A stretch of DNA of 64,000 bases from Escherichia phage fjerdesal. Made by a program: the position numbers and the translations under genes. This document shows positions 14,840-40,684 of the stretch, in pieces. Under the pieces are notes generated by a model. The model saw nothing but the letters and a program-made list of their open reading frames with translations. It was not told where the DNA came from and did not search any database. The stretch lies in the sequence record MN850605.1, one strand, 5' to 3'. The first letter of the stretch is position 1; each line of letters begins with the position of its first letter.

Positions 14840-14917
14840 TTAATACATTGCCAGACCGTGTTTTTTCTTTTATCCGCAAAAAAGTATTTTGTTGCTGAAT
14901 ACGGTCTTCTGCAAAAT

Positions 14918-14994
14918 TGGAGGCGGGTGCAGGAGTCGAACCTGCCGATACCATGCTAATGAGACATGTGAGACGCCCTTTCTCTATACCCGCA
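14918..14994 (-). tRNA. tRNA with anticodon CAT (Met or lysidine-type Ile2)
   Basis: T-arm GCAGG/TTCGACT/CCTGC, anticodon stem CATGT/GCATG loop CTCATTA. Confidence 0.6.
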
Positions 14995-15085
14995 ATTCTT
15001 AATGACCAGACCAAATCTCTTCTTTGTCCGATTTACCTTCAGATGAATAAGATTAAGTTTGCTGTAATTGGTCTTCTGTCAAAAC

Positions 15086-15163
15086 TGGCGTTCCAGAAGG
15101 GATTTGAACCCTCAGATATCCACTTTGAAAGAGTGGTGACTATACCATTTTGTCTACTGGAAC
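15086..15163 (-). tRNA. tRNA-Glu (anticodon TTC)
   Basis: Acceptor GTTCCAG/CTGGAAC, perfect anticodon stem CCACT/AGTGG loop CTTTCAA, G73. Confidence 0.75.
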
Positions 15164-15170
15164 ATTAATT

Positions 15171-15247
15171 TGGTCTCTGTTGGAGGACTTGAACCTCCGG
15201 CCTTACCGCCCCAAACGGAACGCTCTACCAATCTGAGCTAAACAGAG
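15171..15247 (-). tRNA. tRNA-Pro (anticodon TGG)
   Basis: Perfect acceptor CTCTGTT/AACAGAG, D-arm GCTC/AGATTGGTA/GAGC, loop TTTGGGG, T-arm GGAGG/TTCAAGT/CCTCC. Confidence 0.75.
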
Positions 15248-24600: not shown

Positions 24601-25149
24601 ATGGAAAAAGATAACTTAAAAGATGTTGAAGGTAACTATCTAGTACTTGACTGGAGTGATGTTCGAGAAGCACTCTCCGAAGAAAATCTTGACTGGTTCG
24701 AACAAATTATCTTTGCAGTACGGCATAACAGAGAAGTTGAAAATGGTAAAGAGCCACTTGAAGGAATCTTTGTAGAAAGGTCTTATCCGTTCTATGAAGA
24801 CACTTTGCAGAAAGTTAAAATGTACTTTAGACAGAAGAACCGTAAAGTGGTCACTATGGTATCTCTTGGTGGACAGAGTATGTCTGTGATGGAAGATATC
24901 AACCCTAAGAGACCGAGTAAAGGCGTTTGTATAAAAATCACAGGACATGAAGAGTATATCTCAGTTGATGACTTTAGTGCATTCTGTAATGGCTCTTGTG
25001 TCTTTAATGGTTTTCACTATGATATCCGAGTTTACCCAATCAAGGGTGATGATATCATGATGCAGGTATTCGATAATAACAATGGATTTACTCATTTTTA
25101 TCAGACAACCAAGTCATCATTGAAAACAGTTCTGGAAACACTGATTTAA
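24601..25149 (+). CDS. hypothetical protein
   Basis: Track ORF 24526..25149 trimmed to internal ATG to avoid 62-nt overlap with upstream gene; start uncertain. Confidence 0.45.
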   Translation: MEKDNLKDVEGNYLVLDWSDVREALSEENLDWFEQIIFAVRHNREVENGKEPLEGIFVERSYPFYEDTLQKVKMYFRQKNRKVVTMVSLGGQSMSVMEDINPKRPSKGVCIKITGHEEYISVDDFSAFCNGSCVFNGFHYDIRVYPIKGDDIMMQVFDNNNGFTHFYQTTKSSLKTVLETLI

Positions 25150-25160
25150 AATATCTTAAG

Positions 25161-25186
25161 AGCCTCCTTAATTGGGGGCTTTTTAA
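25161..25186 (+). terminator. rho-independent terminator ending the plus-strand block
   Basis: AGCCTCC-TTAATTG-GGGGCT hairpin followed by TTTTT. Confidence 0.55.
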
Positions 25187-26744
25187 TTTTTATAAAATTT
25201 TATCGGTTGTCCCAACCTCTGGGTCACCATCATATGTGAATAAAATATCTATCCTTCTTAACAACCTTCTTAATCTTACTCTCTATATAGTTATATAGTA
25301 CTATATAGTATCTTAGTAACTATCTAGTGGTCTTAATAGCCCTCTGTATAGCCCTTCTAAATAGCCATCTAAACACTCTTCTAACAAGCCTTCTAAACAA
25401 CCTATACAATCATCTTAACCATCTCTCTATATCCTCTTAGAAGCTCCTATACACCTCTTAATCTCTAGGTTAGCTATGTTACTCTCTATAGGTGTTCACT
25501 AGGTACTACTAAGCCTCTATATAGACTGTTTTAACAAACTTAACAGGAATATCTTCACAGACCTTATCTCACAAGGTCTAACACGGTACTAACAAGGTAT
25601 CTTATAAGCCTGTTATTACCTGTATTTTTAAAAGGCTGTATAGGTAATTATTCAGAATCTTAAAATTTTTATAAAATAGGGCTATCAAGTCATTTTTTAG
25701 GGTCTTTGAAGGAACTGAAAAATATCTGATTAGGATGTATATCTGCTTGGTAGCCCTTAACAGCCCCTTAACACCCCCTTTGCAAAATTTTAAAATATCC
25801 TTAACAATCTCTTAACAGTTCTCACATCTTCTTAACAACCCTTCAAAGGTCTTAACAGATTCTTAACAGAACTAACAAGGCTGTAACAGTTTTCTAACAA
25901 GTGCTGAATAGGCTTTACAGAATCTTAACAGATGACTAACAAGAGCTAACAAGTTAATTTTAAAGAGTTATTTTGTTAAGATAATTAACAAGTTCCTAAC
26001 AAGTGTTTAATCTTTTTAACAAGCTATTAACATGGTCACTATCTCTTGGTCTATAGTTCCCTTTCCCTCTTAGTGATTCTTTAAACATACCTCTTAAAAG
26101 CTCTCTATAGCTCTTTATAAGCTCTTTTAAGTCTCTTCCTAGTAGTTACACCCCAACTATACAGAAAGCTTTTTATAGGGCTTTACAGGAGCTTTTAAGG
26201 CTATGTCAAAGGCTCTTACAAGGCTTTTACATGGTCTTAACAGAGATTTAACAAGGGGCTAACAAGTCTCTAACAAGTGCCTTAAAAGCATAACTATGTA
26301 GGGATTGTTAAGAAATTGTTAAGAAAATGTTAAGGGGGCTAGCATTTACGTAACTTTTAAGCTACTTTATATCCCCTATAACATACTTTTAAGACACTAA
26401 CAAGCCCTTTTTAGATATTCACAAGATAGCTAACGAGATGATAAAGCTTACACCCTTATAAGATTCTTTTAAGGCTGTAGGAAGCTTTATAAAGAGCTTT
26501 TAAGGGTGAGTTAATGCAATCCCTTAAGTTAGGTTGATAAGGCTGTTATAGAGCTTTATAGAGCGTTTAAACGGTTGCCCTTCCCTTTCGGGTTATGGGC
26601 TTTTATTTAAGTTGATTTGATAAGAGATTATAGAGTAGACTATAGAGTTATTGCTTTTAAGGTCTGGTAAGATTCTATCGAATCAGTAGGGTAGATTCTG
26701 GAAAGGAAAGGAAAGGGATTGTATAGAGGTTATTACATAGACGT
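25187..26744. repeat. 1.6-kb ORF-free motif-dense region (CTTAACAR / CTAACAAG array; GCTTTATAAAGAGCTTTTAAGG family)
   Basis: No ORF of 60 aa or more on any strand; many short direct repeats; lies between convergent plus- and minus-strand gene blocks. Confidence 0.6.
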
Positions 26745-26790
26745 AAAAAAGCCCCTATGAGAAGGAGCTTTGCAGGTATCTGGGGCTATT
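26745..26790 (-). terminator. putative terminator for minus-strand early array
   Basis: Minus strand GCCCC...GGGGC hairpin followed by TTTTTT. Confidence 0.35.
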
Positions 26791-26807
26791 TAGCCCCGTT
26801 GCGTCGA

Positions 26808-27056
26808 TTAGTTGTAACCTTGTTTATTGTAGTACAGTGAGATAATCAAGTCACCCCAGTAATGATAGTGATGCTCGTCGTTTAATGCCTCTTTTACAGC
26901 GTCTTTCCAGAAGTCATCAGTAGGGTTATAATCTGGGATAACTTGCTTGATAACTGTCTTCACTAATGAAAAGCATTCATCAGTTCCACCGATATCAAAT
27001 TTAACGTCCAGAGTATAACAGCCATAAGCATTGACAGTTGCGCGGATAGTTGCCAT
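26808..27056 (-). CDS. hypothetical early protein
   Basis: 82-aa ORF preceded by conserved promoter-hairpin-SD cassette. Confidence 0.55.
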   Translation of the reverse strand: MATIRATVNAYGCYTLDVKFDIGGTDECFSLVKTVIKQVIPDYNPTDDFWKDAVKEALNDEHHYHYWGDLIISLYYNKQGYN

Positions 27057-27122
27057 TTTTTGAATCTCCTAGTTTAAGGACTTTACTTAGTGGGGAAGGT
27101 CATTCCCTCCCCGTTGATTAGT

Positions 27123-27151
27123 AATTTACTGCATGTTGGCGTATGTTGCAA
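27123..27151 (-). promoter_or_regulatory. early promoter cassette type A (TTGCAA-N17-TAAATT) followed by 5' hairpin and SD
   Basis: -10 overlaps stop codon of upstream gene; hairpin GGGGAGGG/CCTTCCCC then AGGAGA SD. Confidence 0.55.
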
Positions 27152-27389
27152 GCCTTTTTTCGTTGTATTTTGTCAGAATCTCACAAGATAAAACATCATA
27201 TTTTGTAACCGCTTTGCCTTTGTCGAGGTCAAAGAATCCGAACGCTTTACCATCTTTGAATCCGACAACTTCGTAAGATTCTTTGATGATTTCACCATTG
27301 AACAAATCACTTTCGATACGGTGAAATAATGCTACATCTTCTTTGTCGGTTGCAATTTGTAAAAGTGTGGTTAATTCTACGTTTTCCAT
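27126..27389 (-). CDS. hypothetical early protein
   Basis: 87-aa ORF. Confidence 0.55.
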   Translation of the reverse strand: MENVELTTLLQIATDKEDVALFHRIESDLFNGEIIKESYEVVGFKDGKAFGFFDLDKGKAVTKYDVLSCEILTKYNEKRLATYANMQ

Positions 27390-27449
27390 CTTGATGCCCC
27401 TAGTTTAAGGATTTTATTGAGTGGGGGAGGTCATCCCCCGTTAATGAGT

Positions 27450-27478
27450 AATTTACAGATTTTTGATTGTCTCGTCAA
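27450..27478 (-). promoter_or_regulatory. early promoter cassette type A (TTGACG-N17-TAAATT)
   Basis: Conserved GTAAATTAC -10 region followed by hairpin and SD. Confidence 0.55.
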
Positions 27479-27983
27479 TGTCTTTTTCAATAGCTTTTAA
27501 AGTTTTTTCTAAGTTCTTGATATTGAAAGATAAACCCTCTCCCAATGTTTTGCTGTAACCACTAGGGCGCAAGTCATGCAGTTCGATTTCTTCCACTTCG
27601 AAGAGACTAACCAACTCACCGCTTACACTGTAAGCCATTGAAACAGTATTTACAGGGGCTTTATAGAACTTGTTTAAGGACTTGATAGAACGCTCATAAG
27701 CCATTTTATAACCGTTTAAAAGGTCTTTAACGTGGTTGCGAACGTTTTTACACTCATCTAAGTAAATCCCTAAGAATAGCGGTAATAACTCTGCTACAGC
27801 TTGCATAAAGTGAGAGACTACAACGGTTGCAACATTACGACGATGTACATAATAAGCCCCATTTTCTGATTTAGTGATGGTTGCAAAGTGTACCCCATTG
27901 CAGCGAAATTCGTAGGTATCTTTAACAGGCTTAGCCATTACAGCATTTGAACGAATGTAGTTGATAGCTTGAAATTTGTTCAT
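27453..27983 (-). CDS. hypothetical early protein
   Basis: Track ORF 27453..28028 trimmed to ATG positioned by conserved cassette SD. Confidence 0.5.
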   Translation of the reverse strand: MNKFQAINYIRSNAVMAKPVKDTYEFRCNGVHFATITKSENGAYYVHRRNVATVVVSHFMQAVAELLPLFLGIYLDECKNVRNHVKDLLNGYKMAYERSIKSLNKFYKAPVNTVSMAYSVSGELVSLFEVEEIELHDLRPSGYSKTLGEGLSFNIKNLEKTLKAIEKDIDETIKNL

Positions 27984-28046
27984 TTTTGAATCTCCTAGTT
28001 TAAGGACTTTATTTAGTGGGGAGGTCATTACCTCCCGTTGATTAGT

Positions 28047-28075
28047 AATTTACTTGTTTTGATATCTGATTGCAA
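28047..28075 (-). promoter_or_regulatory. early promoter cassette type A (TTGCAA-N17-TAAATT)
   Basis: Same architecture as other cassettes. Confidence 0.55.
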
Positions 28076-28203
28076 GCAATTTTTTAAGTTTATCTATAAA
28101 GAATCTTTTAAGTTAATCCCTTTTAGATAAACCCCCTCGAACAAATCTACCAATGTCAAGGGGCGTTGTCAATACTTTTTGAAAGTTTTTTGTAAGTTAT
28201 TGA

Positions 28204-28545
28204 TTAACTGATGAATATTTTTTCAGGTTTTACATAGCTGATACGCTGACTTTTTAGCAGGTCATCCCAGATTAACGCGGCGATATGGGCATAACCGGAT
28301 TCACGTAAAAGCTTCATTGTTTTACTTCTCGTTTCAAAACGGCTTGCGTAGTACTCACTATTTAAAACCGTTTTATTCCCTTCGTTATCTACATGGATAA
28401 TCTGCATCACTTGAAAGGGGCTTGTGTCCTCGCCTTTGTTCCACTGTTCAAAGTATTTTAGGCACTGCATAGGTGACATCTTATCACTTACTTGAGTTGA
28501 CCAAGATGAATTTTCTTTATCGGTAATTACGGTTACATAAGCCAT
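28204..28545 (-). CDS. hypothetical early protein
   Basis: 113-aa ORF. Confidence 0.55.
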   Translation of the reverse strand: MAYVTVITDKENSSWSTQVSDKMSPMQCLKYFEQWNKGEDTSPFQVMQIIHVDNEGNKTVLNSEYYASRFETRSKTMKLLRESGYAHIAALIWDDLLKSQRISYVKPEKIFIS

Positions 28546-28610
28546 TTTTGAATCTCCTAGTTTAAGGATTGTACTTAGTGGGGAAGGTCATTCCCTCCCC
28601 GTTGATTGAC

Positions 28611-28639
28611 AATTTACAGATTTTTATCAGGCTTGTCTA
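28611..28639 (-). promoter_or_regulatory. early promoter cassette type A (TAGACA-N17-TAAATT)
   Basis: Same architecture. Confidence 0.5.
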
Positions 28640-28870
28640 GTCTTTTTCAATGATAATTTCATACTGACCATCTACGCTGTCAAAATAGATACCGTCTTCA
28701 TCTTCTGTCTTAAAGTAACATTGTATATCATCACTAGCGGGATAGTCTTGTCTTGCTATCTGACAGACCTGAACAGCATTTTCTTTACTTCCTGTAAACT
28801 CCTCAAGCCCTTTAAAATCACATGAATGACCATTACAAATAGAAAGGATAAGATAAACGGTTGTAAGCAT
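28637..28870 (-). CDS. hypothetical small secreted/membrane protein (Cys-containing)
   Basis: 77 aa with N-terminal hydrophobic segment MLTTVYLILSICNGHSC. Confidence 0.5.
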   Translation of the reverse strand: MLTTVYLILSICNGHSCDFKGLEEFTGSKENAVQVCQIARQDYPASDDIQCYFKTEDEDGIYFDSVDGQYEIIIEKD

Positions 28871-28936
28871 GATTTAAGCCTCTTAAAAGCCCCTGTGAGG
28901 GGCTAATCAGTGTTTATAAGGTGATTGCATAGGTTT

Positions 28937-29479
28937 TTAGAAAAAGCTCTTTAAATCTCTCTCTGTGATGTTTCCCGCTAGTGTATCCATGATGTCACAA
29001 AAAACCTGAATACTATCCGACTGTTGAATACTTTTAGCAAGAAGCTCCAGAGACTCATCAAGATAATTTAAATTTGGGTTATCCAATGAAGGAAGACAAA
29101 AAGGCGAAAACATCGCATTAAACTCGGTTACGTAAACCTTTTTAATCCAATTTAAATCGAAGTATTCTGTAAAACTTGCTACGCCAGACATATTATCACA
29201 AGAATAATCATCATTCAGGTCATCCTCTGGGATATCAAGTTCTAAGATAACAATATTTTGGGTTTTCATCTGGAAAGCGGCCGTAATAGTGGCATTACCT
29301 AACGCTTGCTGGATGCCTTCGGCTGTTATCTCTTCCTCATCGTCGCCATAGATTTTATTTTCTGGATACACGTAAAAATTGCCGTCCATGTCCGAACAAT
29401 TCCATGCACCTGATGGCTTGTCACCGTTATTAATCAGGTTGAGGAAATTTTCTTGAGTAGTACCGTGAAAGCATTTCAT
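28937..29479 (-). CDS. hypothetical early protein, possible ADP-ribosyltransferase fold (HGT motif)
   Basis: 180 aa; N-terminal FHGTTQENFLNLINNG resembles the H-G-[ST]...N...I...G NAD-binding motif of H-Y-E class ARTs (PARP/diphtheria-toxin/Tpt1-like), followed by GNFYVYPE; unverified. Confidence 0.5.
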   Translation of the reverse strand: MKCFHGTTQENFLNLINNGDKPSGAWNCSDMDGNFYVYPENKIYGDDEEEITAEGIQQALGNATITAAFQMKTQNIVILELDIPEDDLNDDYSCDNMSGVASFTEYFDLNWIKKVYVTEFNAMFSPFCLPSLDNPNLNYLDESLELLAKSIQQSDSIQVFCDIMDTLAGNITERDLKSFF

Positions 29480-29530
29480 TTTTGAATCTCCAGTTTAGGA
29501 TTTAGTGGTAAAGCTCTTTATCTGGGGCTT

Positions 29531-29559
29531 ACTTTATCGAACTATAAGCCCCTTGTAAA
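29531..29559 (-). promoter_or_regulatory. early promoter cassette type B (TTTACA-N17-TAAAGT) with GGGGCTTA/TAAGCCCC hairpin
   Basis: Near-identical cassette copies at about 30333, 31404 and 31751. Confidence 0.5.
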
Positions 29560-29564
29560 GTACT

Positions 29565-29768
29565 TTATTTGTTATTTTTTACTACTTTTAAAACCGCACG
29601 ATAGCCTAAGCAATAGGAATCACCGAAGAGCGACCGACCCATGAAGGAGTCCTCTGTAATATCTTTCGCCGTGACGGTTTTTTCTACGCCGTGAAAGAGA
29701 ACTACATCACCGACTTTAATATCTTTGATGTGTGTAGTTTCAATGGTTAAACCGTTAATAATAGCCAT
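29565..29768 (-). CDS. hypothetical early protein
   Basis: 67-aa ORF. Confidence 0.5.
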   Translation of the reverse strand: MAIINGLTIETTHIKDIKVGDVVLFHGVEKTVTAKDITEDSFMGRSLFGDSYCLGYRAVLKVVKNNK

Positions 29769-29831
29769 TTTTGAATCTCCAGTTTAGGACTTTATTTAGT
29801 GGGGAAGGTCATTCCCGCCCCGTTGATGTGT

Positions 29832-29860
29832 AATTTAATCTATCTGAAAACCAATGTCAA
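29832..29860 (-). promoter_or_regulatory. early promoter cassette type A (TTGACA-N17-TAAATT)
   Basis: Consensus -35; preceded on plus strand by T14 tract. Confidence 0.55.
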
Positions 29861-29875
29861 CAATTTTTTTTTTTT

Positions 29876-30280
29876 TTAGAGTTCTGCATAAATTGCATCA
29901 CAGATACCACGAAAATCATGATTTGTCAAATTACGTTGTAACCAAGTGGCGAAAAAGTCAGCGATTGCAAAGTTAGCGTCATACTCGACAGATAGCCACA
30001 CTTTAACAGCAAACCGAAACATTTTCAAATCAAGCTCTTTATTCATTACCTTAGATTTGCCTAACATGTCGGACATTTCATATTGTGCACCGTCTAGCGT
30101 GATACCTGCTGCAACGTCAGCCAATGAGTTTTTTACGTTTTCAACGTCTAAGATAACGCTTTGAATCTTCCCAATAATGTTGTGCAATGTTTCGTCCGGT
30201 GCTGATGACGTAATAACATTAATCCGGTTAACGGTCAAACGTGCTTTTAAGATTGATAACTCGCGATTATTAATAGCCAT
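29876..30280 (-). CDS. hypothetical early protein
   Basis: Track ORF 29876..30295 trimmed: upstream MENLK codons are part of conserved cassette; SD-positioned ATG gives MAINNRE... Confidence 0.5.
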   Translation of the reverse strand: MAINNRELSILKARLTVNRINVITSSAPDETLHNIIGKIQSVILDVENVKNSLADVAAGITLDGAQYEMSDMLGKSKVMNKELDLKMFRFAVKVWLSVEYDANFAIADFFATWLQRNLTNHDFRGICDAIYAEL

Positions 30281-30332
30281 TTTTAAGTTCTCCAATTTAG
30301 GATTTAGTGGTAAAGCTCTTTATCTGGGGCTT

Positions 30333-30361
30333 ACTTTATCGAACTATAAGCCCCTTGTAAA
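30333..30361 (-). promoter_or_regulatory. early promoter cassette type B (TTTACA-N17-TAAAGT)
   Basis: Cassette copy. Confidence 0.5.
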
Positions 30362-30366
30362 GTACT

Positions 30367-30639
30367 TTATACTAAATGCAGCTTTTTACCTTTTACTATG
30401 ATGTAACTCGATGCGCTATTGCTTTGCACATCCTGATAAATTCTGCGCAAACGGCCTTCGTAGTATACTTTCCAACTGGTTGGAATCTTTTTCCCGTATC
30501 CTGTAGCAGTTTTTTGTAGTCCTGCAAGTTGCCAATCTAAGATATGTTGTTCGGCTTGTAAATCCTCGAAGTGCATTACACCGTTCACATAGTGACGAAG
30601 GGTTACGTTTAAGGTGCGACCGTTGTTAGTAGTATACAT
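30367..30639 (-). CDS. hypothetical early protein
   Basis: 90-aa ORF. Confidence 0.5.
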   Translation of the reverse strand: MYTTNNGRTLNVTLRHYVNGVMHFEDLQAEQHILDWQLAGLQKTATGYGKKIPTSWKVYYEGRLRRIYQDVQSNSASSYIIVKGKKLHLV

Positions 30640-30701
30640 TTTGAATCTCCTAGTTTAAGGACTTTGTTTAGTGGGGAGGTCATTACCTCCCGTTGATTAG
30701 T

Positions 30702-30730
30702 AATTTACTTGTTTTAAAAACCAAAATCAA
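30702..30730 (-). promoter_or_regulatory. early promoter cassette type A (TTGATT-N17-TAAATT)
   Basis: Cassette copy. Confidence 0.5.
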
Positions 30731-31059
30731 GAGAAATTTTTTCGTTTGCTCAATTCTTGAACAATTACAGCGTAGTAGTCTTTTAAGTCACTGACATTTA
30801 AAGCATTTATCAGAGAATTATAATCATCGACTAACTGAAAATCATCTTTGAAAATGTCGCTGATTTGATAAGTTTTTGATTGAAATCTGAAGCTCATTTC
30901 TAACCGTTTTATTTGTTCATCACTTAAACGCTCCAGAAAGCTCATTACAAGGCTATTATTGACCTGTTGCGTGATTGCCTTATTTGCTAGATTATAGGCT
31001 TTATATGCCTTATATAGCGCGAAAATGGCAATGATTGCAGTGATACCAGTCATTAACAT
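30727..31059 (-). CDS. hypothetical membrane protein
   Basis: 110 aa with N-terminal TM segment. Confidence 0.5.
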   Translation of the reverse strand: MLMTGITAIIAIFALYKAYKAYNLANKAITQQVNNSLVMSFLERLSDEQIKRLEMSFRFQSKTYQISDIFKDDFQLVDDYNSLINALNVSDLKDYYAVIVQELSKRKNFS

Positions 31060-31349
31060 GGTGTTTCCTCTTTACGTGATACTTTGCCATTTACAGTTAT
31101 CTCATAAGAATCTAGTAAGTCACTTTTAGATTTTACTGGACTTTTAAAAGTATCATCATAAATATTTACTTGCAATACAGGTTTTTTATACTCCCTGCAA
31201 CTATTCCATAAACAAATCACTACACGACGGCCTTTTATTTTACCGTGCAACCATTCCATAACATCATGATTATTTCTTGATGTCTCGATAAAATCAATTT
31301 TGTTGAGTAACTTGCTTAGATTTTCACGAACTTTATTGGATAATTTCAT
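31053..31349 (-). CDS. hypothetical early protein
   Basis: 98-aa ORF. Confidence 0.5.
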   Translation of the reverse strand: MKLSNKVRENLSKLLNKIDFIETSRNNHDVMEWLHGKIKGRRVVICLWNSCREYKKPVLQVNIYDDTFKSPVKSKSDLLDSYEITVNGKVSRKEETPC

Positions 31350-31403
31350 TTTTGAGTCTCCTAGTTTAAGGGTTAATTTGATAAAGCTCTTTATCTGGGG
31401 CTT

Positions 31404-31432
31404 AAGATATCAACTTTTAAGCCCCTTGTAAA
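31404..31432 (-). promoter_or_regulatory. early promoter cassette type B variant (TTTACA-N17-TATCTT)
   Basis: Cassette copy. Confidence 0.45.
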
Positions 31433-31440
31433 GTACTTTA

Positions 31441-31698
31441 TCAGATTAAATTGCCAGTTAATGATAAGTGCATTTTGTAACCTTGTTTAGTGAATACGTT
31501 CACTTTACCGAGTGTTTTTACACCTTTAAAAAGGTTATTTGAACTGCGTTTTAAGGTTAAATGTTTATCAGCCTTCACGCCCCACCTTACATTAGATTGT
31601 TTTCCGTTGTCAACCACTTTCCCGCATAACTTTTTAGCCATAACGCGAGCGTCATCACGAGTTTTTGCAGCAATTACAACGTTTTTGATAATAGCCAT
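31441..31698 (-). CDS. hypothetical early basic protein
   Basis: Track ORF 31441..31713 trimmed to cassette-positioned ATG (MAIIKNV...). Confidence 0.5.
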   Translation of the reverse strand: MAIIKNVVIAAKTRDDARVMAKKLCGKVVDNGKQSNVRWGVKADKHLTLKRSSNNLFKGVKTLGKVNVFTKQGYKMHLSLTGNLI

Positions 31699-31750
31699 TT
31701 TTAAGTTCTCCAATTTAGGATTTAGTGGTAAAGCTCTTTATCTGGGGCTT

Positions 31751-31779
31751 ACTTTATCGAACTATAAGCCCCTTGTAAA
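31751..31779 (-). promoter_or_regulatory. early promoter cassette type B (TTTACA-N17-TAAAGT)
   Basis: Cassette copy. Confidence 0.5.
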
Positions 31780-31784
31780 GTACT

Positions 31785-32165
31785 TTATTTAATTTTGAAG
31801 ATAGTTACGTAACCATCACTACCGATTATTTGAGACACTCCAGCTTTTTCTACTTGATAGCCCATATTTTCAAGATGATAAACAGCATCATCATAACCAT
31901 ATGCGCCACCCTGATAACGTCTCTTATCGCATTTTATCAGGTTTTTACCACGTCCCGCAAGTGCATGCAAAATGGCTTTTTCACTTGAAAGAGTACCATC
32001 TAGCATTGTCGCCGTGTAATGGTTGATTTTATTCCCGTTAATATCATACTTGAAATTGAACGAGTGAACAACAATAACGTTACCTTTAAAATTCTCATCA
32101 AGTGACTTCTCCAGTACGCTACGAAAGTTGTCTTTGTTGATGAATTTAGGTGCACGATATTTCAT
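31785..32165 (-). CDS. hypothetical early protein (first gene of array)
   Basis: 126-aa ORF. Confidence 0.55.
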   Translation of the reverse strand: MKYRAPKFINKDNFRSVLEKSLDENFKGNVIVVHSFNFKYDINGNKINHYTATMLDGTLSSEKAILHALAGRGKNLIKCDKRRYQGGAYGYDDAVYHLENMGYQVEKAGVSQIIGSDGYVTIFKIK

Positions 32166-32214
32166 TTTTGAATCTCCTAGTTTAAGGACTTTAATTTTTG
32201 GGGTCCGGCATTTC

Positions 32215-32227
32215 CCCCCCCCCCCCG
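32215..32227. repeat. homopolymeric C13 (G13 on minus strand) in 5' leader hairpin position
   Basis: 13 consecutive C at 32215-32227, replacing the GGGGAGGG arm seen in other cassettes. Confidence 0.7.
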
Positions 32228-32236
32228 TTGATGCAA

Positions 32237-32265
32237 ATACTAGATAACCCCGTTCAAAGAGTCAA
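32237..32265 (-). promoter_or_regulatory. strong sigma70-type promoter (TTGACT-N17-TAGTAT) heading the early gene array
   Basis: Minus strand TTGACTCTTTGAACGGGGTTATCTAGTAT followed by CAACGGGG leader. Confidence 0.6.
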
Positions 32266-32385
32266 GAAAATTTTAAAAATATTTTTGGGAAAACTGTAAT
32301 GAAACGTGCGCACACGACTACCACAAAACAGAACACAAATCAAGAATTATTTTTCAATCCGCTACAAATTTTTCTCTTGACTTTT

Positions 32386-32416
32386 GGGGAGAGGGGGAGT
32401 AAGAGGGGGAGAGGGG
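32386..32416 (+). other. G-quadruplex-forming motif (G4-N3-G5-N7-G5-N3-G4)
   Basis: GGGGAGAGGGGGAGTAAGAGGGGGAGAGGGG on plus strand. Confidence 0.5.
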
Positions 32417-32440
32417 TTGGTCTGGCTCTCTATAAAAACC

Positions 32441-32624
32441 TACCTGCACAATTCTAAAATGATTTTTCTTGCCCGACCTGAGCGGGGTCTGCACGTTTTG
32501 AAAATGAAAAAGCTCTTTGGAGATTACCTGCACAGTTTGAAAATGAATTTTTCTCTTTGGAGTTCAAAATACTCTCTACAGATTTCTCTATAGAGATATA
32601 CCTGCACAATTCTGAAATGAAAAA
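32441..32624. promoter_or_regulatory. iteron-like direct repeats (TACCTGCACARTTYTRAAATGAA, 3 copies plus 1 degenerate)
   Basis: Copies at about 32441, 32488 (degenerate), 32524, 32598. Confidence 0.5.
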
Positions 32625-32693
32625 GCCCTCCTTACCTGAAAAATTTACCAGATAAGAAAGGCTTAGTCTATTGTGAATATCCTACGAAGTTTC

Positions 32694-33479
32694 TTAGTTC
32701 TTTGCGGCTAAGAAGGTAACTTCTGGCGAAGAGAAAACTGTCTCGATATCCTCATCAGTTCTTGCATAGATGTAAGTATCTGCATCACTGCCAAATGTTA
32801 CTGCAATCCTGTGATTGCTCTTCGACAGGTGGGTAACTAGAGCGTTACTTAGAGACATCTTTTCAACCGGAGGGTTACTTTGATGTATCTTACCTTTTCT
32901 TCGTCTGAAGAGGGTAACTGCATTATCCGTGAACACAACTACACCTGCGAAGTATTCTGGTTCACAGTAGTTCTTCCAACCTGAGCGTAACTTGTGGTAC
33001 ATCTCTCCTTCATAGACATATAGATAAACATCTACGCTCTTCATTACCTGATTGATGATAACTGTGACGGCTTGAGGGTCCAACCCACCGATACCTGCAC
33101 CAATCATAGGTAAACCAACTTTCTTCAACTGATTAACTTCACAGTATCTGTTAAGTTGCTTCAAAGATGACTCTAAAGCACTGTATCGGGCATCTTTACC
33201 AGTCTTAAGCTGAGTGTAAAGGTTAGCTATACGACCTTGTTTTAAACGTGCTACGGAGAAATTACCTAGTAAATTTTCACAGGGTTTGTGGCCTATACCA
33301 CCTGCATATAGATAAACTTCTGTATCGGTCTCATATGCTTCTGGGTAAAGTTTAGAAATCTTGTCAGCGATACCTGCACCCATTAAATTCATACAGTTGC
33401 AACCGTGACCAATGATGTCAAACTTACCTTTATCAAATGCAGCAAAGATGTCACCATTGATGATTTTTACAATACCCAT
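32694..33479 (-). CDS. macro-domain protein (ADP-ribose binding/processing) with C-terminal extension
   Basis: 261 aa; N-terminal INGDIFAA...FDIIGHGCNCMNLMGAGIADKI and VGLPMIGAGIGGL match macro-domain glycine-rich motifs. Confidence 0.6.
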   Translation of the reverse strand: MGIVKIINGDIFAAFDKGKFDIIGHGCNCMNLMGAGIADKISKLYPEAYETDTEVYLYAGGIGHKPCENLLGNFSVARLKQGRIANLYTQLKTGKDARYSALESSLKQLNRYCEVNQLKKVGLPMIGAGIGGLDPQAVTVIINQVMKSVDVYLYVYEGEMYHKLRSGWKNYCEPEYFAGVVVFTDNAVTLFRRRKGKIHQSNPPVEKMSLSNALVTHLSKSNHRIAVTFGSDADTYIYARTDEDIETVFSSPEVTFLAAKN

Positions 33480-37128: not shown

Positions 37129-38238
37129 TTAGATTTCACGTTTACGTTGAGAGATAAGTTCACCAGCAGTGCCAACGATGACATGCAAAGCTTCAGTCTT
37201 ACCGTCCCATGCTTCCAGCACTTTACGTTGATTATCAACGATTGCTGCAACTTCATAACGAGAGGAACGCATCTTCATATCGTTGTAATCAGTTGGAACA
37301 GATACAACATCTCGTGGGTGGACACGAACTTTCAGGATTGTATCACCTGAGAAGCTGCGAACATAATCCCAAGCACCAACATGAAGACCTTGAGAGCAAG
37401 TCACGTTACGGTTATTATCAACCATCCAACGTGGCATCTCTACAATGTTACCCAAATCGTTAGGAACTTTGTAGGTGTGGGAGTCAACCAGCTTACCTTC
37501 ACGAGTAGAGACTTTCTTCCAACCAATGATGTAGCCTTCTTCATCAATCTCAACATCGAGATGAGATATGAATCCCCAAAGCTGTTCTACAGAGTCTTTT
37601 GATGGGTTTTCCATCAGTTTTTCGAAGAACATTACAAGTCGTTCAAAACCTTTATCACCAGTCTTCATCATGTGAAGAATACGGTCAACCAGAGTAGAAC
37701 GCATCTCAACAGCACCGTAGAAGAGCTTGTCACCTTTGATTGTGATAGCACCCTGAGTGAAGTTTTCGATAGACTTACGAATGTTCATCAGTTCAAATGC
37801 TTTCTTGAACTCACCTTTCACAACATGAACTACAATCTCTTGATAGTTTGGATGAGTAGACTCAACAATTTCAGATTCTGAACCATAAGTCATAATTACA
37901 GAATCACCAGTAATCATGTACTCAATCTTGTCATCTTTCTGCATAGCTTCGTGCAGTTTATTTACTGGAGCTTGCTGTACAGTGTCTTTAACGACCTTTT
38001 CAACTGGTTTGCCAGCTTTCTTTTTAAAAGTCTTAGCAACTTGTTTCAAAGTCTTCGTAGCTGGTGTAGAAGTTACCTTTTTATTCCCTTTTAGGGTTGC
38101 TTCATGACGCTCTACAGCACGACCAACTGAACGGGTTGAAGTGTTAAATTTCTGTGCAATAGCTGTTTTGGTCAGCTTACCTTCTTTAACCAGTTTGTAA
38201 ATTTCTGCGTCAATCTGTGCTTTAGTTTTAGTAGTCAT
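37129..38238 (-). CDS. rIIB: rIIB-like protein
   Basis: 369-aa ORF immediately downstream of rIIA homolog; size and position as in T4-type rII locus. Confidence 0.6.
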   Translation of the reverse strand: MTTKTKAQIDAEIYKLVKEGKLTKTAIAQKFNTSTRSVGRAVERHEATLKGNKKVTSTPATKTLKQVAKTFKKKAGKPVEKVVKDTVQQAPVNKLHEAMQKDDKIEYMITGDSVIMTYGSESEIVESTHPNYQEIVVHVVKGEFKKAFELMNIRKSIENFTQGAITIKGDKLFYGAVEMRSTLVDRILHMMKTGDKGFERLVMFFEKLMENPSKDSVEQLWGFISHLDVEIDEEGYIIGWKKVSTREGKLVDSHTYKVPNDLGNIVEMPRWMVDNNRNVTCSQGLHVGAWDYVRSFSGDTILKVRVHPRDVVSVPTDYNDMKMRSSRYEVAAIVDNQRKVLEAWDGKTEALHVIVGTAGELISQRKREI

Positions 38239-38282: not shown

Positions 38283-38312
38283 ATTTTAAGGGGCTTTGAA
38301 GCCCCTTGTCAA
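38283..38312 (-). promoter_or_regulatory. promoter with hairpin in spacer (TTGACA-N18-TAAAAT)
   Basis: Minus strand TTGACAAGGGGCTTCAAAGCCCCTTAAAAT; perfect GGGGCTT/AAGCCCC hairpin between -35 and -10. Confidence 0.45.
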
Positions 38313-38317
38313 ACACT

Positions 38318-40684
38318 TTAATCGTAAATTGTAGTCCCTTCTGGAACACACTTCACATCAAAGCCTAAAAACTTACTCACTTCGATAGGTGATACTTTAT
38401 TCCAATCTAAGTGTGAAAGCAAGAAGTTTTCTTGTTTTCTTTTTGAAAGATAGTTTGTCAGCTTAATAACCATGCGGTCACCCGCTTTCTTAATCTTTTT
38501 GTACAGTTTTGTGTCATTATCAAGGCATGACTTCAAATCCTGAAGAACACTGATAGTGTAAGTGTATGCAAACGGTGCAGCCACATACTGAATCTTACCA
38601 AACATTGCCTCAACAGCATCTTCATTCCCTTCTAAGAAGATTGTCTTAATAGTATCCCTTGAATAACAATACCCGCGAGAAATCTTCCTGTTATTAAACG
38701 TAAAGTTTCTGGCAATAATCCAACTGCTTGTAAGGTCAAGGACACCATTCATATAGATACGTGTCATATATCTGTTATGGTTAATCCAGTGAACATCAGT
38801 TAAGCTGTCGTTCAAGAGTTTCTCATCTACTTCAATCCAATCTTCTGGTATCTTTTTCCAATTTGCTTTTCGGAAAACATAGACTGTCTTACCTGTAACA
38901 TTAGCAACTGACTTAGCTACATCTTCTGGAGATGAGCAAAAACATCTACCATCAACTGTGTCACCAACTGCCTTAATATAAAGCTGAGGTTCTTCAATTG
39001 TGTCTAAGTCCTCTGAAACCTCTTTATAGGAAGCTACAGATTCTGCTGGAACAGCTTTCCAGAGTTTTACAACACCTCTCACAGCCTCTTTACGCTGATA
39101 ATGATGCTCCTTATCAGACATTTTCACAATCTTTAACAAGCTTTTATCAAGTTTGTGTAGATTGATTAAATCATCTAACTCTTTTTCAGTCGAGAATACA
39201 AACACAATACCATTGTATCTGTGGAACAGGCCTGACTCGTTAGCGTAGTCTCGACATGCACCACGCAAGATTTGATTTCGTCCTACAGTCTTCTCAGTAC
39301 CGTTTTTATTGCGACGGTCATTAATCACGAACAAAAACTGTTCAATTTGGCTTTTACGCATTGCACCAAAGATATTGAACATACTTGCCTCTTGAGTGTA
39401 GGAAAGTGCTGTTGCACGAATCTTACTCTCTAAAGAGTTGAACTTGACATAAGCAACTGGGTCATAAAGGTAATCTACTTTAGGGATGTTGTTTCCGTTC
39501 CTATCAACCTTAATATTACCTTTACCGTCACGTTCATAAATGACTGAGCCGTCTTCTGCGTAGATAATCCCACGACGAATGTTTAGCAATTCTTCTTCCA
39601 GAGAATCAAGCTTAACGCCTCCCCACTCTAGCTTTGGACACACAGCATTAAACATCTCTCGTGAGTTCAAACGTAACTCAGCATAAGCCTGTGCAGCATC
39701 CATGAGTGTAGGTTGGCTATTAACTTTCTTGATAACATCCTTTGTAATGGCTTCAGTTATCTTTTTAGTAGCCTCAATGATAACATTTTTTGTCGTGTCA
39801 TTCATCTGCAATGCTTCACGAGAAGCTGCAATAGCAACTGAACCAATAGGCATGTAGATGTTTACAAGGTCTACGCTCCTACGGAAAAATTCTGGCAATA
39901 CTTTGAAGAAATCATCACCAAGTAATGCTTCCATATTAACAGGGTAGGCAATGTTACCCATCACCACATTAAACTCTGTCCTGTTACCACTAGAACGCCA
40001 GCTTTGCTTATGAATCATGGCATCATAAACACCTTCTTCACGGGCAATGACGTTCATATCTGCTAATACATCGTCGTACTCAATATTACTTTCTGGTTTT
40101 ACAGTGAAGTATGAGTACACATTCCCAGCTTCTTCAAAGAACTTTGAGATACGGTGGTCAGCAACTGCCACACGTACAGCTAAACCATTAGGTTCTTTTG
40201 TTGGGTTAGTTGTCAGCTTAGTTACTTGAGGGATACCATTCTCAAGATAAACAGAGTACTTATTAACAACACCGTCAACATAGCTAGATACTGTGAATGA
40301 CTGAGCAATTGCAAATGGTGACTTTGAGCCGATACCCATTGCACCAATGTAGTCATTAGAGTCATTCTTCGTAGAAGCTCCATAGTTTAGGTACAAACTC
40401 ATAACTTTATCATGAGTCAATCCAGTTCCAAAATCACGAACTTCGAAGTAAGGCTCAAAACGAGTAGGTAAATGCACATGGAATGGAATGTTCTCTTTTC
40501 CAGCTTCTTTCTGAGCATCTACTGCGTTACATGACAGTTCACGAATCACTGCCCTTTCTTTAAAGGTGTATACACCAGAACTCAAAAGGCTGAACATCTC
40601 AGGTGTCATTGTAATCTGTGCTTGAGACGTCTCTAAAGAAGTTGAACTCTTAATCACTTCTGCGTGGTCATTTACCATGCGCAT
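38318..40684 (-). CDS. rIIA: rIIA-like protein
   Basis: 788 aa; N-terminal FSLLSSGVYTFKERAVIRELSCNAVDA closely matches T4 rIIA N-terminus as recalled. Confidence 0.75.
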   Translation of the reverse strand: MRMVNDHAEVIKSSTSLETSQAQITMTPEMFSLLSSGVYTFKERAVIRELSCNAVDAQKEAGKENIPFHVHLPTRFEPYFEVRDFGTGLTHDKVMSLYLNYGASTKNDSNDYIGAMGIGSKSPFAIAQSFTVSSYVDGVVNKYSVYLENGIPQVTKLTTNPTKEPNGLAVRVAVADHRISKFFEEAGNVYSYFTVKPESNIEYDDVLADMNVIAREEGVYDAMIHKQSWRSSGNRTEFNVVMGNIAYPVNMEALLGDDFFKVLPEFFRRSVDLVNIYMPIGSVAIAASREALQMNDTTKNVIIEATKKITEAITKDVIKKVNSQPTLMDAAQAYAELRLNSREMFNAVCPKLEWGGVKLDSLEEELLNIRRGIIYAEDGSVIYERDGKGNIKVDRNGNNIPKVDYLYDPVAYVKFNSLESKIRATALSYTQEASMFNIFGAMRKSQIEQFLFVINDRRNKNGTEKTVGRNQILRGACRDYANESGLFHRYNGIVFVFSTEKELDDLINLHKLDKSLLKIVKMSDKEHHYQRKEAVRGVVKLWKAVPAESVASYKEVSEDLDTIEEPQLYIKAVGDTVDGRCFCSSPEDVAKSVANVTGKTVYVFRKANWKKIPEDWIEVDEKLLNDSLTDVHWINHNRYMTRIYMNGVLDLTSSWIIARNFTFNNRKISRGYCYSRDTIKTIFLEGNEDAVEAMFGKIQYVAAPFAYTYTISVLQDLKSCLDNDTKLYKKIKKAGDRMVIKLTNYLSKRKQENFLLSHLDWNKVSPIEVSKFLGFDVKCVPEGTTIYD

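What the first reader, a model, noticed from the sequence alone, without database searches (positions are those of the whole stretch)
26808..32265. Array of 13 small early genes, each with its own promoter-hairpin-RBS cassette (PeSL-like modular architecture)
Between almost every pair of small genes there is a conserved 70-95 bp cassette. Type A: -35 (TTGACA-like) inside the 3' end of the upstream gene, 17-bp spacer, -10 TAAATT overlapping the stop codon, then a GC-rich hairpin (GGGGAGGG-AATGA-CCTTCCCC) and AGGAGA SD. Type B: TTTACA-N17-TAAAGT with GGGGCTTA/TAAGCCCC hairpin arms, in at least 4 near-identical copies. The cassette even contributes the first codons of two genes (MENLKMAI). This resembles promoter-early-stem-loop cassettes reported in T4-type phages and suggests cassette-mediated gene shuffling of host-takeover or anti-defence genes.
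Basis: seen in the sequence. Interest (0 to 1): 0.65.

Follow-up and report, generated by a model that had tools for sequence, protein, structure and literature searches.

The report
Promoter-hairpin-RBS gene cassettes in Felix-O1-like phage
A Felix-O1-like coliphage carries 13 small genes of unknown function, 11 of them preceded by one of two repeated ~100-bp promoter + hairpin + ribosome-site cassettes, and comparison with about 30 relatives shows that genes are gained, lost and moved exactly at these cassettes, as described for the "PeSL" cassettes of T4-like phages.

Summary
The window is a Felixounavirus, 99.5% identical to Escherichia phage heid. On the minus strand of 26808-32272, 11 of 13 small ORFan genes are preceded by a ~100-bp cassette: 7 of type A and 4 of type B. 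These cassettes occur nowhere else in the ~88-kb genome.

Across 246 unique copies from about 30 relatives, three features hold:
- **Promoter:** conservation follows a sigma-70 pattern. TTGaca and TAnnnT are kept at exactly 17 bp, while the type A spacer varies.
- **Hairpins:** they are maintained by covariation. G·U pairs and GNRA loops point to the sense RNA.
- **Boundaries:** the upstream stop codon usually lies in or within about 15 nt of the promoter hexamers (type A: inside a hexamer in 74 of 137 copies).

Gene content differs between phages in units of gene plus cassette. Some families change order or position, and deletion junctions are chimeric cassettes.

This meets every sequence-testable criterion of the PeSL cassettes of T4-like phages, in an unrelated phage subfamily and with unrelated sequence. 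Earlier papers noted only fragments of it.

Not shown here: promoter activity, what the hairpins do (no U-tract, so not canonical terminators), and the function of the genes. The "MENLKMAI" reading is an ORF-calling artefact.

Verdict: a new member of a known kind, of moderate interest.

The parts
32623..32664 (-). Intrinsic terminator upstream of the array (17-bp stem + T-run), after the Macro-domain gene 32694-33479
   Evidence: equals t13 of Felix O1; Macro domain
32163..32272 (-). Cassette A-1: AT-rich UP region, -35 TTGACT (32265-32260), N17, -10 TAGTAT (32242-32237), degenerate hairpin with G13 run, AGGAGA SD, ATG 32165
31785..32165 (-). ORFan gene, 126 aa (phrog_4495, unknown function)
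31696..31794 (-). Cassette B-1: stop TAA = first triplet of the cassette, -35 TTTACA (31779-31774), N17, -10 TAAAGT (31756-31751) in the loop of a ~20-bp hairpin, SD GGAGA, ATG 31698
31441..31698 (-). ORFan gene, 85 aa (true start ATG; the TTG-extended 'MENLK' form is an artefact)
31347..31449 (-). Cassette B-2: -35 TTTACA (31432-31427), -10 TATCTT (31409-31404, TG-extended), 33-nt inverted-repeat arms 31373-31405 / 31417-31449 (RNA fold -29.5 kcal/mol, z = -5.8). Chimeric relative to the two cassettes that flank an extra gene in phage AYO145A
   Evidence: (I1)
31053..31349 (-). ORFan gene, 98 aa; forms a two-gene module with the next gene
30727..31059 (-). ORFan gene, 110 aa, N-terminal hydrophobic helix; no cassette, overlaps the upstream gene by 7 nt
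30637..30734 (-). Cassette A-2: -35 TTGATT (contains the upstream stop TGA), N17, -10 TAAATT (30707-30702), hairpin GGGAGGT-AATG-ACCTCCC, SD, ATG 30639
30367..30639 (-). ORFan gene, 90 aa
30278..30378 (-). Cassette B-3: -35 TTTACA (30361-30356), -10 TAAAGT (30338-30333), long hairpin 30311-30369 (inner stem GGGGCTTA/TAAGCCCC 30326-30354); 100% identical to B-1 over 100 nt
29876..30280 (-). ORFan gene, 134 aa (ATG start)
29766..29866 (-). Cassette A-3: A14 UP tract, -35 TTGACA (29860-29855), N17, -10 TAAATT (29837-29832), hairpin GGGGCGGG-AATGA-CCTTCCCC, SD GGAGA, ATG 29768
29565..29768 (-). ORFan gene, 67 aa (absent from some relatives together with the cassette that follows it)
29477..29572 (-). 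Cassette B-4: -35 TTTACA (29559-29554), -10 TAAAGT (29536-29531), long hairpin, SD, ATG 29479
28937..29479 (-). ORFan gene, 180 aa, very acidic (pI 4.1); two-gene module with the next gene
28637..28870 (-). ORFan gene, 77 aa; no cassette; preceded by its own hairpin AGCCCCTCACAGGGGCTTTT
28543..28644 (-). Cassette A-4: -35 TAGACA (contains the upstream stop TAG; 28639-28634), N17, -10 TAAATT (28616-28611), hairpin GGGGAGGG-AATGA-CCTTCCCC, SD, ATG 28545
28204..28545 (-). ORFan gene, 113 aa
27981..28081 (-). Cassette A-5: -35 TTGCAA, N17, -10 TAAATT (28052-28047), hairpin GGGAGGT-AATG-ACCTCCC, SD, ATG 27983. The 220-bp spacer also holds an extra promoter-like site TTGACA-N17-TAGATT at 28172-28144
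27453..27983 (-). ORFan gene, 176 aa
27387..27483 (-). Cassette A-6: -35 TTGACG inside the upstream gene (27478-27473), N17, -10 TAAATT (27455-27450) whose TAA is the upstream stop codon, hairpin GGGGGA-TGACC-TCCCCC, SD variant AGGGG, ATG 27389
27126..27389 (-). ORFan gene, 87 aa (absent from several relatives together with one cassette)
27054..27157 (-). Cassette A-7: -35 TTGCAA inside the upstream gene, N17, -10 TAAATT (27128-27123; TAA = upstream stop), hairpin 27092-27112 GGGGAGGG-AATGA-CCTTCCCC, SD, ATG 27056
26808..27056 (-). Last ORFan gene of the array, 82 aa
26745..26798 (-). End of the array: B-like remnant hairpin GGGGCTAAATAGCCCCAGATA, then intrinsic terminator AGCTCCTTCTCATAGGGGCTTTTTT
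   Evidence: position corresponds to t23 of Felix O1

Best explanation
The array is a hyperplastic early-gene region built from PeSL-type composite cassettes.

What each ~100-bp cassette contains:
- It starts at or near the stop codon of the upstream gene.
- It carries a host sigma-70 promoter. Type A is TTGaca-N17-TAAATT. Type B is TTTACA-N17-TAnnnT.
- It carries a G/C-rich stem-loop that forms in the sense RNA.
- It ends with a near-invariant 5'UTR (CCT(T)AAACT(A)GGAGA), a 7-9 nt spacer and the ATG.

How it most likely works:
- Host RNA polymerase starts at a conserved C-A step about 7-8 nt after the -10 (inferred).
- In type A, the mRNA then begins with 3 free nucleotides followed by an 8-bp hairpin. 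This is the geometry of a 5'-terminal stabiliser.
- In type B, the -10 sits in the loop and the 5' arm lies upstream of the start site. The ~20-bp hairpin therefore exists only in transcripts that read through from upstream.
- In copies where the upstream stop codon lies in the -10 (type A) or in the cassette's own TAA (type B), both types place a GC stem about 16 nt after it. Its common job is therefore most likely to end, attenuate or protect the 3' end of the upstream message. Each gene would then be an insulated, mostly monocistronic unit (inferred by analogy with the tested PeSL stem-loop).
- Because the same 60-100 bp recur 7-17 times in direct orientation, homologous recombination between cassettes deletes, inserts, duplicates and transposes whole genes while always rebuilding an intact stop-promoter-RBS-start junction. 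This last step is shown by comparative data.
For: Repeat reality and clustering.

Lineage: there are 305 copies in 28 loci. B-type matches in IMG/VR occur only in 84-94-kb contigs, mostly the same Felix-O1-like contigs already retrieved.

Promoter signature:
- In 76 unique A promoters the -35 is T.97 T.88 G.97 A.72 C.64 A.59 and the -10 is T1.0 A1.0 A.83 A.75 T.53 T1.0. The spacer window is a fixed 17 nt, but spacer columns are only 33-76% conserved.
- The region upstream of the -35 is 80% A+T.
- In B, CTTTACA is invariant while the -10 varies through at least 12 hexamers, and 122 of 125 copies fit TAnnnT.

Hairpins:
- B: 20 pairs, 97.1% of cells paired against 32-57% when partners are slid. 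Five pairs have double changes, covering 76 cells, reached by 0 of 500 shuffles. There are G-C to U-A swaps and 156 U·G cells.
- A: 121 unique copies carry 50 different hairpin sequences, and all fold. The stem starts 3 nt after the predicted start in 116 of 121. The sense strand is more stable than the antisense (-13.3 vs -11.0 kcal/mol, p = 5e-15). GAAA/GAGA loops occur in a subset of the more divergent loci (L025-L030; L027 = Mooglevirus Michonne).

Stop codons embedded in the cassette.

Shuffling:
- Family 17 lies before family 14 in L005 and after it in L018.
- Family 19 sits at two different loci.
- Family 9 is tandemly duplicated in Michonne.
- The chimeric junction is localised to GAGC|TTTA|TC, with five further junctions inside cassettes.
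- 46 of 57 variable junction types carry a cassette, against 1 of 5 constant ones (p = 0.01).
- All four loop-type x SD-type combinations occur at one position.
- 35% of B copies are closest to a non-orthologous copy.

Other points:
- The flanked genes are unrelated ORFans.
- The PeSL definition and its tested promoter and terminator functions are in PMC2839356 and PMC4122927.
- Felix O1 orthologues ORF16, 20, 21 and 22 were maximally expressed at 5 min.
Against: - There are no transcript 5' or 3' end data for any Felix-O1-like phage in the searchable literature. Promoter use and start sites are therefore inferred from sequence.
- The -10 hexamers match the consensus at only 4 of 6 positions, and some -35 hexamers are weak (TTGATT, TTGCAA).
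- Neither hairpin is followed by a U-tract, and the terminator scan flags none of them. Termination is therefore not predicted by the canonical rule.
- Some unpaired positions are nearly or fully invariant for no known reason. Examples are ATCAAC before the A stem and AGA in the B internal loop.
- The published RT-PCR places orthologues ORF17, 19 and 23 at 25 min, and it also puts some structural genes at 5 min, so it is a weak witness.
- Eleven variable junction types have no detectable cassette.
Confidence: 0.75

Rival explanations
1. The hairpins are RNA processing and stability elements, not terminators. Under this view the type B ~20-bp stem with a 3x3 internal loop is an RNase III site, like those between the early genes of phage T7. 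It would cut read-through transcripts into monocistronic mRNAs with a protective 3' hairpin. The type A stem would be a 5'-terminal stabiliser against RNase E. This rival keeps the promoter and shuffling roles and differs only in what the stem-loop does.
For: - No U-tract follows either stem.
- The B stem has 20 pairs with an internal loop and folds at -24 to -29.5 kcal/mol (z = -3 to -5.8).
- Covariation, U·G pairs and GNRA loops show selection on the sense RNA.
- The A stem starts 3 nt from the predicted 5' end in 116 of 121 copies. Established work on E. coli mRNA decay shows that 5' hairpins protect only when very few unpaired nucleotides precede them (own knowledge).
Against: - No cleavage data exist.
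- The only experimentally tested analogue, a PeSL stem-loop, behaved as a strong terminator in a lacZ assay.
- The A stems (7-8 bp) are too short for RNase III.
Confidence: 0.3
2. The inverted repeats act in DNA, as operators for a phage-encoded dimeric regulator that switches the whole array off (or on) together. This is what was proposed for the ESAS inverted repeats of cluster K mycobacteriophages.
For: - Some positions that need not pair are invariant (AGA in the B internal loop) or nearly so (ATCAAC before the A stem).
- The B repeat straddles the promoter.
- The genome encodes an annotated 'transcriptional regulatory protein' elsewhere (heid_101).
Against: - Types A and B share no operator-like sequence.
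- The stems change sequence freely while keeping pairing: 50 A variants, and G-C to U-A swaps in B.
- Frequent G·U pairs would be A·C on the other strand.
- The sense strand folds significantly better than the antisense.
All of these point to RNA rather than duplex DNA recognition.
Confidence: 0.1
3. The repeats are only leftovers of tandem duplication of a gene together with its upstream region, with no role in gene exchange.
For: The repeats are direct, closely spaced and in one orientation.
Against: - The 13 proteins show no similarity to one another (best E = 0.65) and fall in 13 different PHROGs.
- The cassettes are up to 100% identical.
- Cassettes are mosaic and move between positions.
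- Indel junctions are chimeric cassettes.
Confidence: 0.03

Closest known systems
PeSLs (promoter-early stem-loops) of T4-like myoviruses: RB49/phi1, T4/PST, KVP40/nt-1 (Arbiol et al. 2010, PMC2839356; Comeau et al. 2014, PMC4122927)
   Same: - Same order of parts: upstream stop codon, AT-rich region, sigma-70-type -35/N17/-10, G-tract/C-tract stem-loop with G·T pairs, SD and ATG.
- About 100 bp are conserved.
- The stem-loop is placed across the -10 (type B) or just after the -10 (type A). Both are among the five described PeSL subclasses.
- They are concentrated in one hyperplastic region and flank ORFans.
- Indels and replacements between close relatives end inside the cassettes.
- Even the T4/PST promoter consensus (TTTACW-N17-TAYWAT) resembles type B.
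   Different: - The host phage belongs to a different subfamily (Ounavirinae, about 88 kb, not T4-like).
- There is no sequence similarity to published PeSL consensus stems.
- There are only two sharply defined types, which share a near-invariant 5'UTR.
- Type B has a second, outer helix that makes a ~20-bp structure.
- RNA-level covariation is demonstrated here, which was not done for PeSLs.
- Promoter activity, terminator activity and mini-circles are untested here.
Start-associated sequences (SAS) and extended SAS of cluster K mycobacteriophages (Pope et al. 2011, PMC3203893). This analogy was already drawn for the 26-bp repeat of Citrobacter phage Mordin (PMC4611695)
   Same: - A conserved motif that includes AGGAG but extends beyond what pairs with 16S rRNA.
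- It lies a few nucleotides upstream of the ATG of many unrelated non-structural genes.
- It is present in one orientation.
- It is often preceded by an inverted repeat.
- The Mordin repeat CCAACAATCCTAAACTGGAGAATCTA is the 3' end of the cassettes described here.
   Different: - SAS elements are scattered over half a genome and are not known to contain promoters.
- The ESAS inverted repeats do not covary as RNA, whereas these stems do.
- No role in gene shuffling was shown for SAS.
RNase III processing hairpins between the early genes of phage T7 (own knowledge)
   Same: Long imperfect hairpins with an internal loop sit in the spacers of an early, host-polymerase-transcribed gene array. They would leave a 3' hairpin on the upstream mRNA.
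   Different: T7 early genes share three upstream promoters rather than one per gene. Here the hairpin loop contains a promoter. Cleavage is untested.

Membership tests
PeSL cassettes | Sigma-70-like promoter (-35, about 17 bp, -10) | tested here: met
   All 11 window copies have a 17-bp spacer. Position frequencies over 76 unique A promoters and 125 unique B copies show the TTG...TAnnnT pattern with a variable type A spacer.
PeSL cassettes | [quoted passage not shown] | tested here: met
   The region from -57 to -36 is 80% A+T. In type B the stop lies 8-15 nt before the -35 in 123 of 128 copies. In type A it lies inside the -10 or -35 hexamer in 74 of 137 copies.
PeSL cassettes | Stable stem-loop (G-run ... 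C-run, G·T pairs allowed) within or next to the promoter | tested here: met
   Folds range from -14 to -29.5 kcal/mol. Covariation is shown for B. There are 50 stem variants of A, and all of them pair. The first window copy (32163-32272) is an exception.
PeSL cassettes | Shine-Dalgarno sequence and start codon at the 3' end | tested here: met
   GGAG is invariant in B and nearly so in A, and lies 7-9 nt before the ATG in the aligned copies.
PeSL cassettes | Concentrated in a hyperplastic region and flanking ORFans | tested here: met
   All copies lie in one 5.5-kb stretch of an ~88-kb genome. All 13 proteins lack Pfam hits and fall in PHROGs of unknown function.
PeSL cassettes | Insertions, deletions and replacements between close relatives end in the cassettes | tested here: met
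   Maps of 28 loci are. Cassettes are enriched at variable junctions.
PeSL cassettes | Promoter activity in vivo | not testable with these tools
   Only RT-PCR timing of Felix O1 orthologues is available. No TSS data were found.
PeSL cassettes | Stem-loop terminates or attenuates upstream transcription | not testable with these tools
   No 3'-end data exist. The sequence lacks a U-tract (see the intrinsic terminator row).
PeSL cassettes | Excision of gene + cassette mini-circles | not testable with these tools
   This needs inverse PCR on infected cells or virion DNA.
PeSL cassettes | Described host range: T4-like myoviruses | tested here: not met
   The window is a Felixounavirus of the Ounavirinae. 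This is a taxonomic limit of the original description, not a mechanistic criterion.
Canonical intrinsic terminator | GC-rich stem followed directly by a run of U | tested here: not met
   The scan flags none of the cassette stems. The tails are ACUAAGUAAAG (A) and AGAUAAAG / CCACUAAA (B).
SAS / ESAS (cluster K mycobacteriophages) | [quoted passage not shown] | tested here: met
   CCT(T)AAACT(A)GGAGA is near-invariant in 246 unique copies. The sequence is unrelated to GGGATAGGAGCCC, so this is an analogy and not membership.
RNase III site (T7-early type) | About two turns of dsRNA, often with an internal loop; cleaved by host RNase III | tested here: inconclusive
   Type B has 20 pairs in 3 segments with a 3x3 loop. 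Cleavage is not testable here. Type A is too short.

The most novel reading that the evidence does not exclude
The cassettes may be more than PeSL look-alikes. In this reading they form an integrase-free 'gene-cassette' system whose junctions are selected as RNA. In type B a working promoter would sit in the loop of a ~20-bp RNase III-type hairpin, so each gene would be expressed both from its own start site and from processed read-through RNA. Type A would give its mRNA a 5' protective cap-like hairpin. The two types (AT-rich versus GC-rich discriminator) would then give two regulatory classes that can be swapped onto any gene by recombination.
Probability: 0.2. Interest if true: 0.7.

Novelty: new member of a known kind. 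Interest (0 to 1): 0.5.

Why it matters
Papers on Felix-O1-like phages state that early transcription and its timing are unexplained. They list only a handful of promoters. This array supplies 7-17 candidate host-type promoters per genome.

It also shows that the PeSL design is not peculiar to T4-like phages. Self-contained expression cassettes that double as recombination sites have arisen, with unrelated sequence, in another widespread group of therapeutic and diagnostic phages.

There are two practical consequences. The array is a natural landing pad for inserting genes into Felix-O1-like phages. It is also the place to look for their strain-specific accessory genes.

Tried and rejected
- **Rfam scan of 25000-33000:** only chance-level miRNA and leader hits, far below the gathering scores.
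- **Literature search for TSS or transcriptome data on Felix-O1-like phages:** nothing found.
- **Function of the array proteins:** Pfam gave nothing. Each protein falls in its own PHROG of unknown function. PDB sequence searches of the 180-aa and 176-aa proteins gave nothing meaningful.
- **Single-sequence AlphaFold model of the 180-aa protein:** unusable (pLDDT 38), so no fold search was run.
- **Column-wise pair counting for type A:** abandoned because stem length varies and the alignment is out of register. It was replaced by per-copy folding.
- **The 4-bp UCCU...AGGA mini-hairpin over the SD:** it appears in every fold, but its pairs never vary except for one linked T/A insertion (by eye). 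It can be neither supported nor rejected.
- **Loci L032 and L033** (Macro gene 41% identical): they carry no cassettes and match no known phage.
- **Tandem-duplication origin:** rejected.

Full report
**Identity of the window**

The 6.1-kb stretch is 99.5% identical to Escherichia phage heid (MN850577, Felixounavirus, Ounavirinae). It has 80-95% matches in 258 Felix-O1-like phage records. All 13 ORFs of the finding lie on the minus strand.

The array follows a Macro-domain gene (32694-33479) and a strong intrinsic terminator (32664-32623). It ends with another terminator at 26745-26769.

**The observation**

Reading the minus strand upstream of each start codon and running the repeat finder gives two cassette types.
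- Type A has 7 copies. It reads TTGaca-like -35, 17 nt, TAAATT (TAGTAT in the first copy), ACTAATCAAC, an 8-bp stem GGGGAGGG/CCTTCCCC, ACTAAGTAAAGTCCTTAAACTAGGAGATTCAAAAATG.
- Type B has 4 copies. It reads TAAAGTACTTTACAAGGGGCTTA-loop-TAAGCCCCAGATAAAGAGCTTTACCACTAAATCCTAAAYTGGAGA...ATG.
- Two B copies are identical over 100 nt.

Core motifs give 4-6 matches each against 0.00 expected, all inside 26808-32272. Profile searches of the window plus the other 27.6 kb of heid find no further full copy.

Two genes have no cassette. Gene 30727-31059 overlaps its neighbour. Gene 28637-28870 has its own hairpin.

'MENLKMAI' is an artefact. The TTG lies in the SD, and relatives annotate the ATG.

**Are they promoters?**

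I collected 305 cassette copies from 28 loci: Felix O1, AYO145A, I14.1, HK3 and IMG/VR contigs found through the Macro gene.

Type A, 76 unique promoters:
- The -35 is T.97 T.88 G.97 A.72 C.64 A.59.
- The -10 is T1.0 A1.0 A.83 A.75 T.53 T1.0.
- The spacing window is a fixed 17 nt, yet spacer columns are only 33-76% conserved.
- The upstream 22 nt are 80% A+T.

Type B:
- CTTTACA is invariant.
- The -10 position runs through TATCTT, TAAAGT, TAAGAT, TAGTAT, TATGAT, TACCTT and others.
- 122 of 125 copies fit TAnnnT.

Conservation of exactly the positions that sigma-70 reads, with free variation elsewhere (the type A spacer, the inner -10 positions), is what selection for promoter function predicts. 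Mere repeat homology does not predict it. Actual initiation is not shown.

**The stem-loops**

Type B folds into three helices of 6, 5 and 9 bp with a 1x1 mismatch and a 3x3 loop (-24 to -29.5 kcal/mol, z = -3.0 and -5.8 for the two copies folded). On 125 unique copies:
- 97.1% of cells pair, against 32-57% when partners are slid.
- Five pairs carry double changes in 76 cells, reached by 0 of 500 shuffles.
- One pair switches G-C to U-A 13 times.
- Another pair is C-G in 83 copies and U·G in 40. A third is U·G in 116.

Type A, 121 unique copies:
- There are 50 different hairpin sequences, and all of them fold.
- The stem begins exactly 3 nt after the A of 'AAC' in 116 copies.
- 81 of 846 pairs are G·U.
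- The sense strand folds better than the antisense (-13.3 vs -11.0 kcal/mol, p = 5e-15).
- Some of the more divergent loci (L025-L030; L027 is Mooglevirus Michonne) use GAAA/GAGA tetraloops.

These features argue for selection on the sense RNA rather than on duplex DNA.

**Geometry (inference)**

The usual start, 7-8 nt after the -10 at a C-A step, would put the type A stem at +4 of its own mRNA. It would leave the 5' arm of type B upstream of its own start. The B hairpin can therefore form only in read-through RNA.

Stop codons are built into the cassettes:
- In 38 A copies the TAA of TAAATT is the upstream stop.
- In 36 A copies the stop lies in the -35.
- In 55 B copies the cassette's first TAA is the stop.

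When the stop lies in the -10 (type A) or in the cassette's own TAA (type B), both types place a GC stem about 16 nt after it.

The stem shared by both types is therefore best explained as acting on the 3' end of the upstream message. It could terminate, attenuate or block exonucleases. There is no U-tract, so canonical intrinsic termination is not predicted. RNase III processing (type B) and 5' stabilisation (type A) remain live alternatives.

**Shuffling**

I clustered the ORFs of the loci and interleaved them with the cassettes. This shows the following.
- Families 13, 14, 15, 16, 24, 26 and 32 are present or absent together with exactly one cassette.
- Family 17 lies before family 14 in L005 and after it in L018.
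- Family 19 sits at two different places.
- Family 9 is duplicated with its cassette in Citrobacter phage Michonne (L027).
- The two-gene modules 8-1 and 5-6 travel together in nearly every locus.

The window's cassette at 31347-31449 is a chimera of the two cassettes that flank family 13 in AYO145A. The switch is localised to GAGC|TTTA|TC. Five other indels also join inside cassettes.

Further support:
- Cassettes mark 46 of 57 variable junction types but only 1 of 5 constant ones (p = 0.01).
- Loop type and SD type occur in all four combinations at a single position.
- 35% of B copies are most similar to a copy at another position.
- The 13 proteins are unrelated to one another.

**Comparison with what is known**

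PeSLs of T4-like phages are defined by the same parts in the same order. They allow the same stem positions and show the same association with ORFans and indel end-points. One PeSL was shown to be a strong promoter, and one stem a strong terminator. Every criterion that can be tested on sequence is met here.

The differences are the phage group, the sequence, the sharply bimodal types with a shared UTR, and the extra outer helix of type B.

Parts of this system were noticed earlier without interpretation:
- The Felix O1 genome paper lists the 57-bp and 39-bp direct repeats. It states that temporal control is unknown.
- The VpaE1 paper repeats that question.
- The Mordin announcement reports the 26-bp 3' end of the cassette as 'reminiscent of SASs', with role unknown.

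An exact B-type pattern occurs in IMG/VR only in 84-94-kb contigs, nearly all of them the Felix-O1-like contigs already retrieved.

**Limits**

No transcript mapping exists for this phage group. The RT-PCR timing for Felix O1 is coarse: ORFs 16, 20, 21 and 22 peak at 5 min, and 17, 19 and 23 at 25 min. The gene products remain of unknown function, so 'host takeover or anti-defence' is a guess.

**Verdict**

The PeSL-like interpretation and the cassette-mediated shuffling are supported by comparative evidence. What the hairpin does is inferred. This is a new member of a known kind, with interest 0.5.

Noticed in passing
window 25150-26800: A 1.6-kb stretch with no ORF of 60 aa or more lies between the array's terminator and the convergent plus-strand genes. 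It is packed with short same-strand repeats. Eleven of the window's 17 exact CTTGTTAG copies lie at 25381-26404, all on the minus strand, together with TGTTAAG and CTATAGAG motifs. The same gene-free gap exists in Felix O1 (ORF23-ORF24). It looks like an iteron-type region (origin, packaging or binding array).
   Followed up: partly
window 32265-32620 (minus strand): The non-coding leader between terminator 32664-32623 and the first cassette holds four spaced repeats of about 21 nt (CATTTYMRAAWYGTGCAGGTA). It also holds a C-rich tract, CCCCTCTCCCCCTCTTACTCCCCCTCTCCCC. Its function is unknown.
   Followed up: no
window 38290-38325 (minus strand): TTGACA-AGGGGCTTCAAAGCCCCT-TAAAAT is a promoter-like site with a GC hairpin inside its 18-nt spacer. 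It lies between the 788-aa gene and gene 37129-38238. This is the classic PeSL layout, here outside the array and next to a conserved gene.
   Followed up: partly
window 32209-32221: A homopolymer of 13 G (minus strand) replaces the usual GGGGAGGG arm in the first cassette and abolishes the hairpin (z = -0.05). Relatives carry the normal stem here. It may be a slippage-prone tract or a sequencing artefact.
   Followed up: partly
window 26778-26798 (minus strand): GGGGCTAAATAGCCCCAGATA follows the last gene. It is a B-type inner hairpin plus the invariant CCCCAGATA, but without a promoter or RBS. It sits directly before the terminator and may be the remnant of a lost cassette.
   Followed up: no
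window 27984-28203: This unusually long 220-bp spacer contains a second, better promoter match (TTGACA-N17-TAGATT with TG, 28172-28144). The match lies inside a CCCCT...AGGGG inverted repeat, upstream of cassette A-5. AYO145A annotates a promoter at the homologous place.
   Followed up: partly
window 28937-29479 and 28637-28870: The 180-aa protein is very acidic (pI 4.1, 31 D+E against 9 K+R). This is a feature of DNA-mimic anti-restriction proteins, but no homology or usable model was obtained. Its constant partner is a 77-aa acidic protein with a hydrophobic, Cys-containing N-terminus.
   Followed up: partly
all cassettes, e.g. window 27066-27079: A mini-hairpin (U)CCU-UAAACU-AGG(A) covers part of the SD in both cassette types. 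The 'long' and 'short' forms differ by a linked insertion of T on one side and A on the other, which adds one U-A pair. No half-changed forms were seen by eye in the alignments.
   Followed up: partly
window 10340-15247: A cluster of 26 tRNA genes lies on the minus strand, as is usual for Felix-O1-like phages.
   Followed up: no
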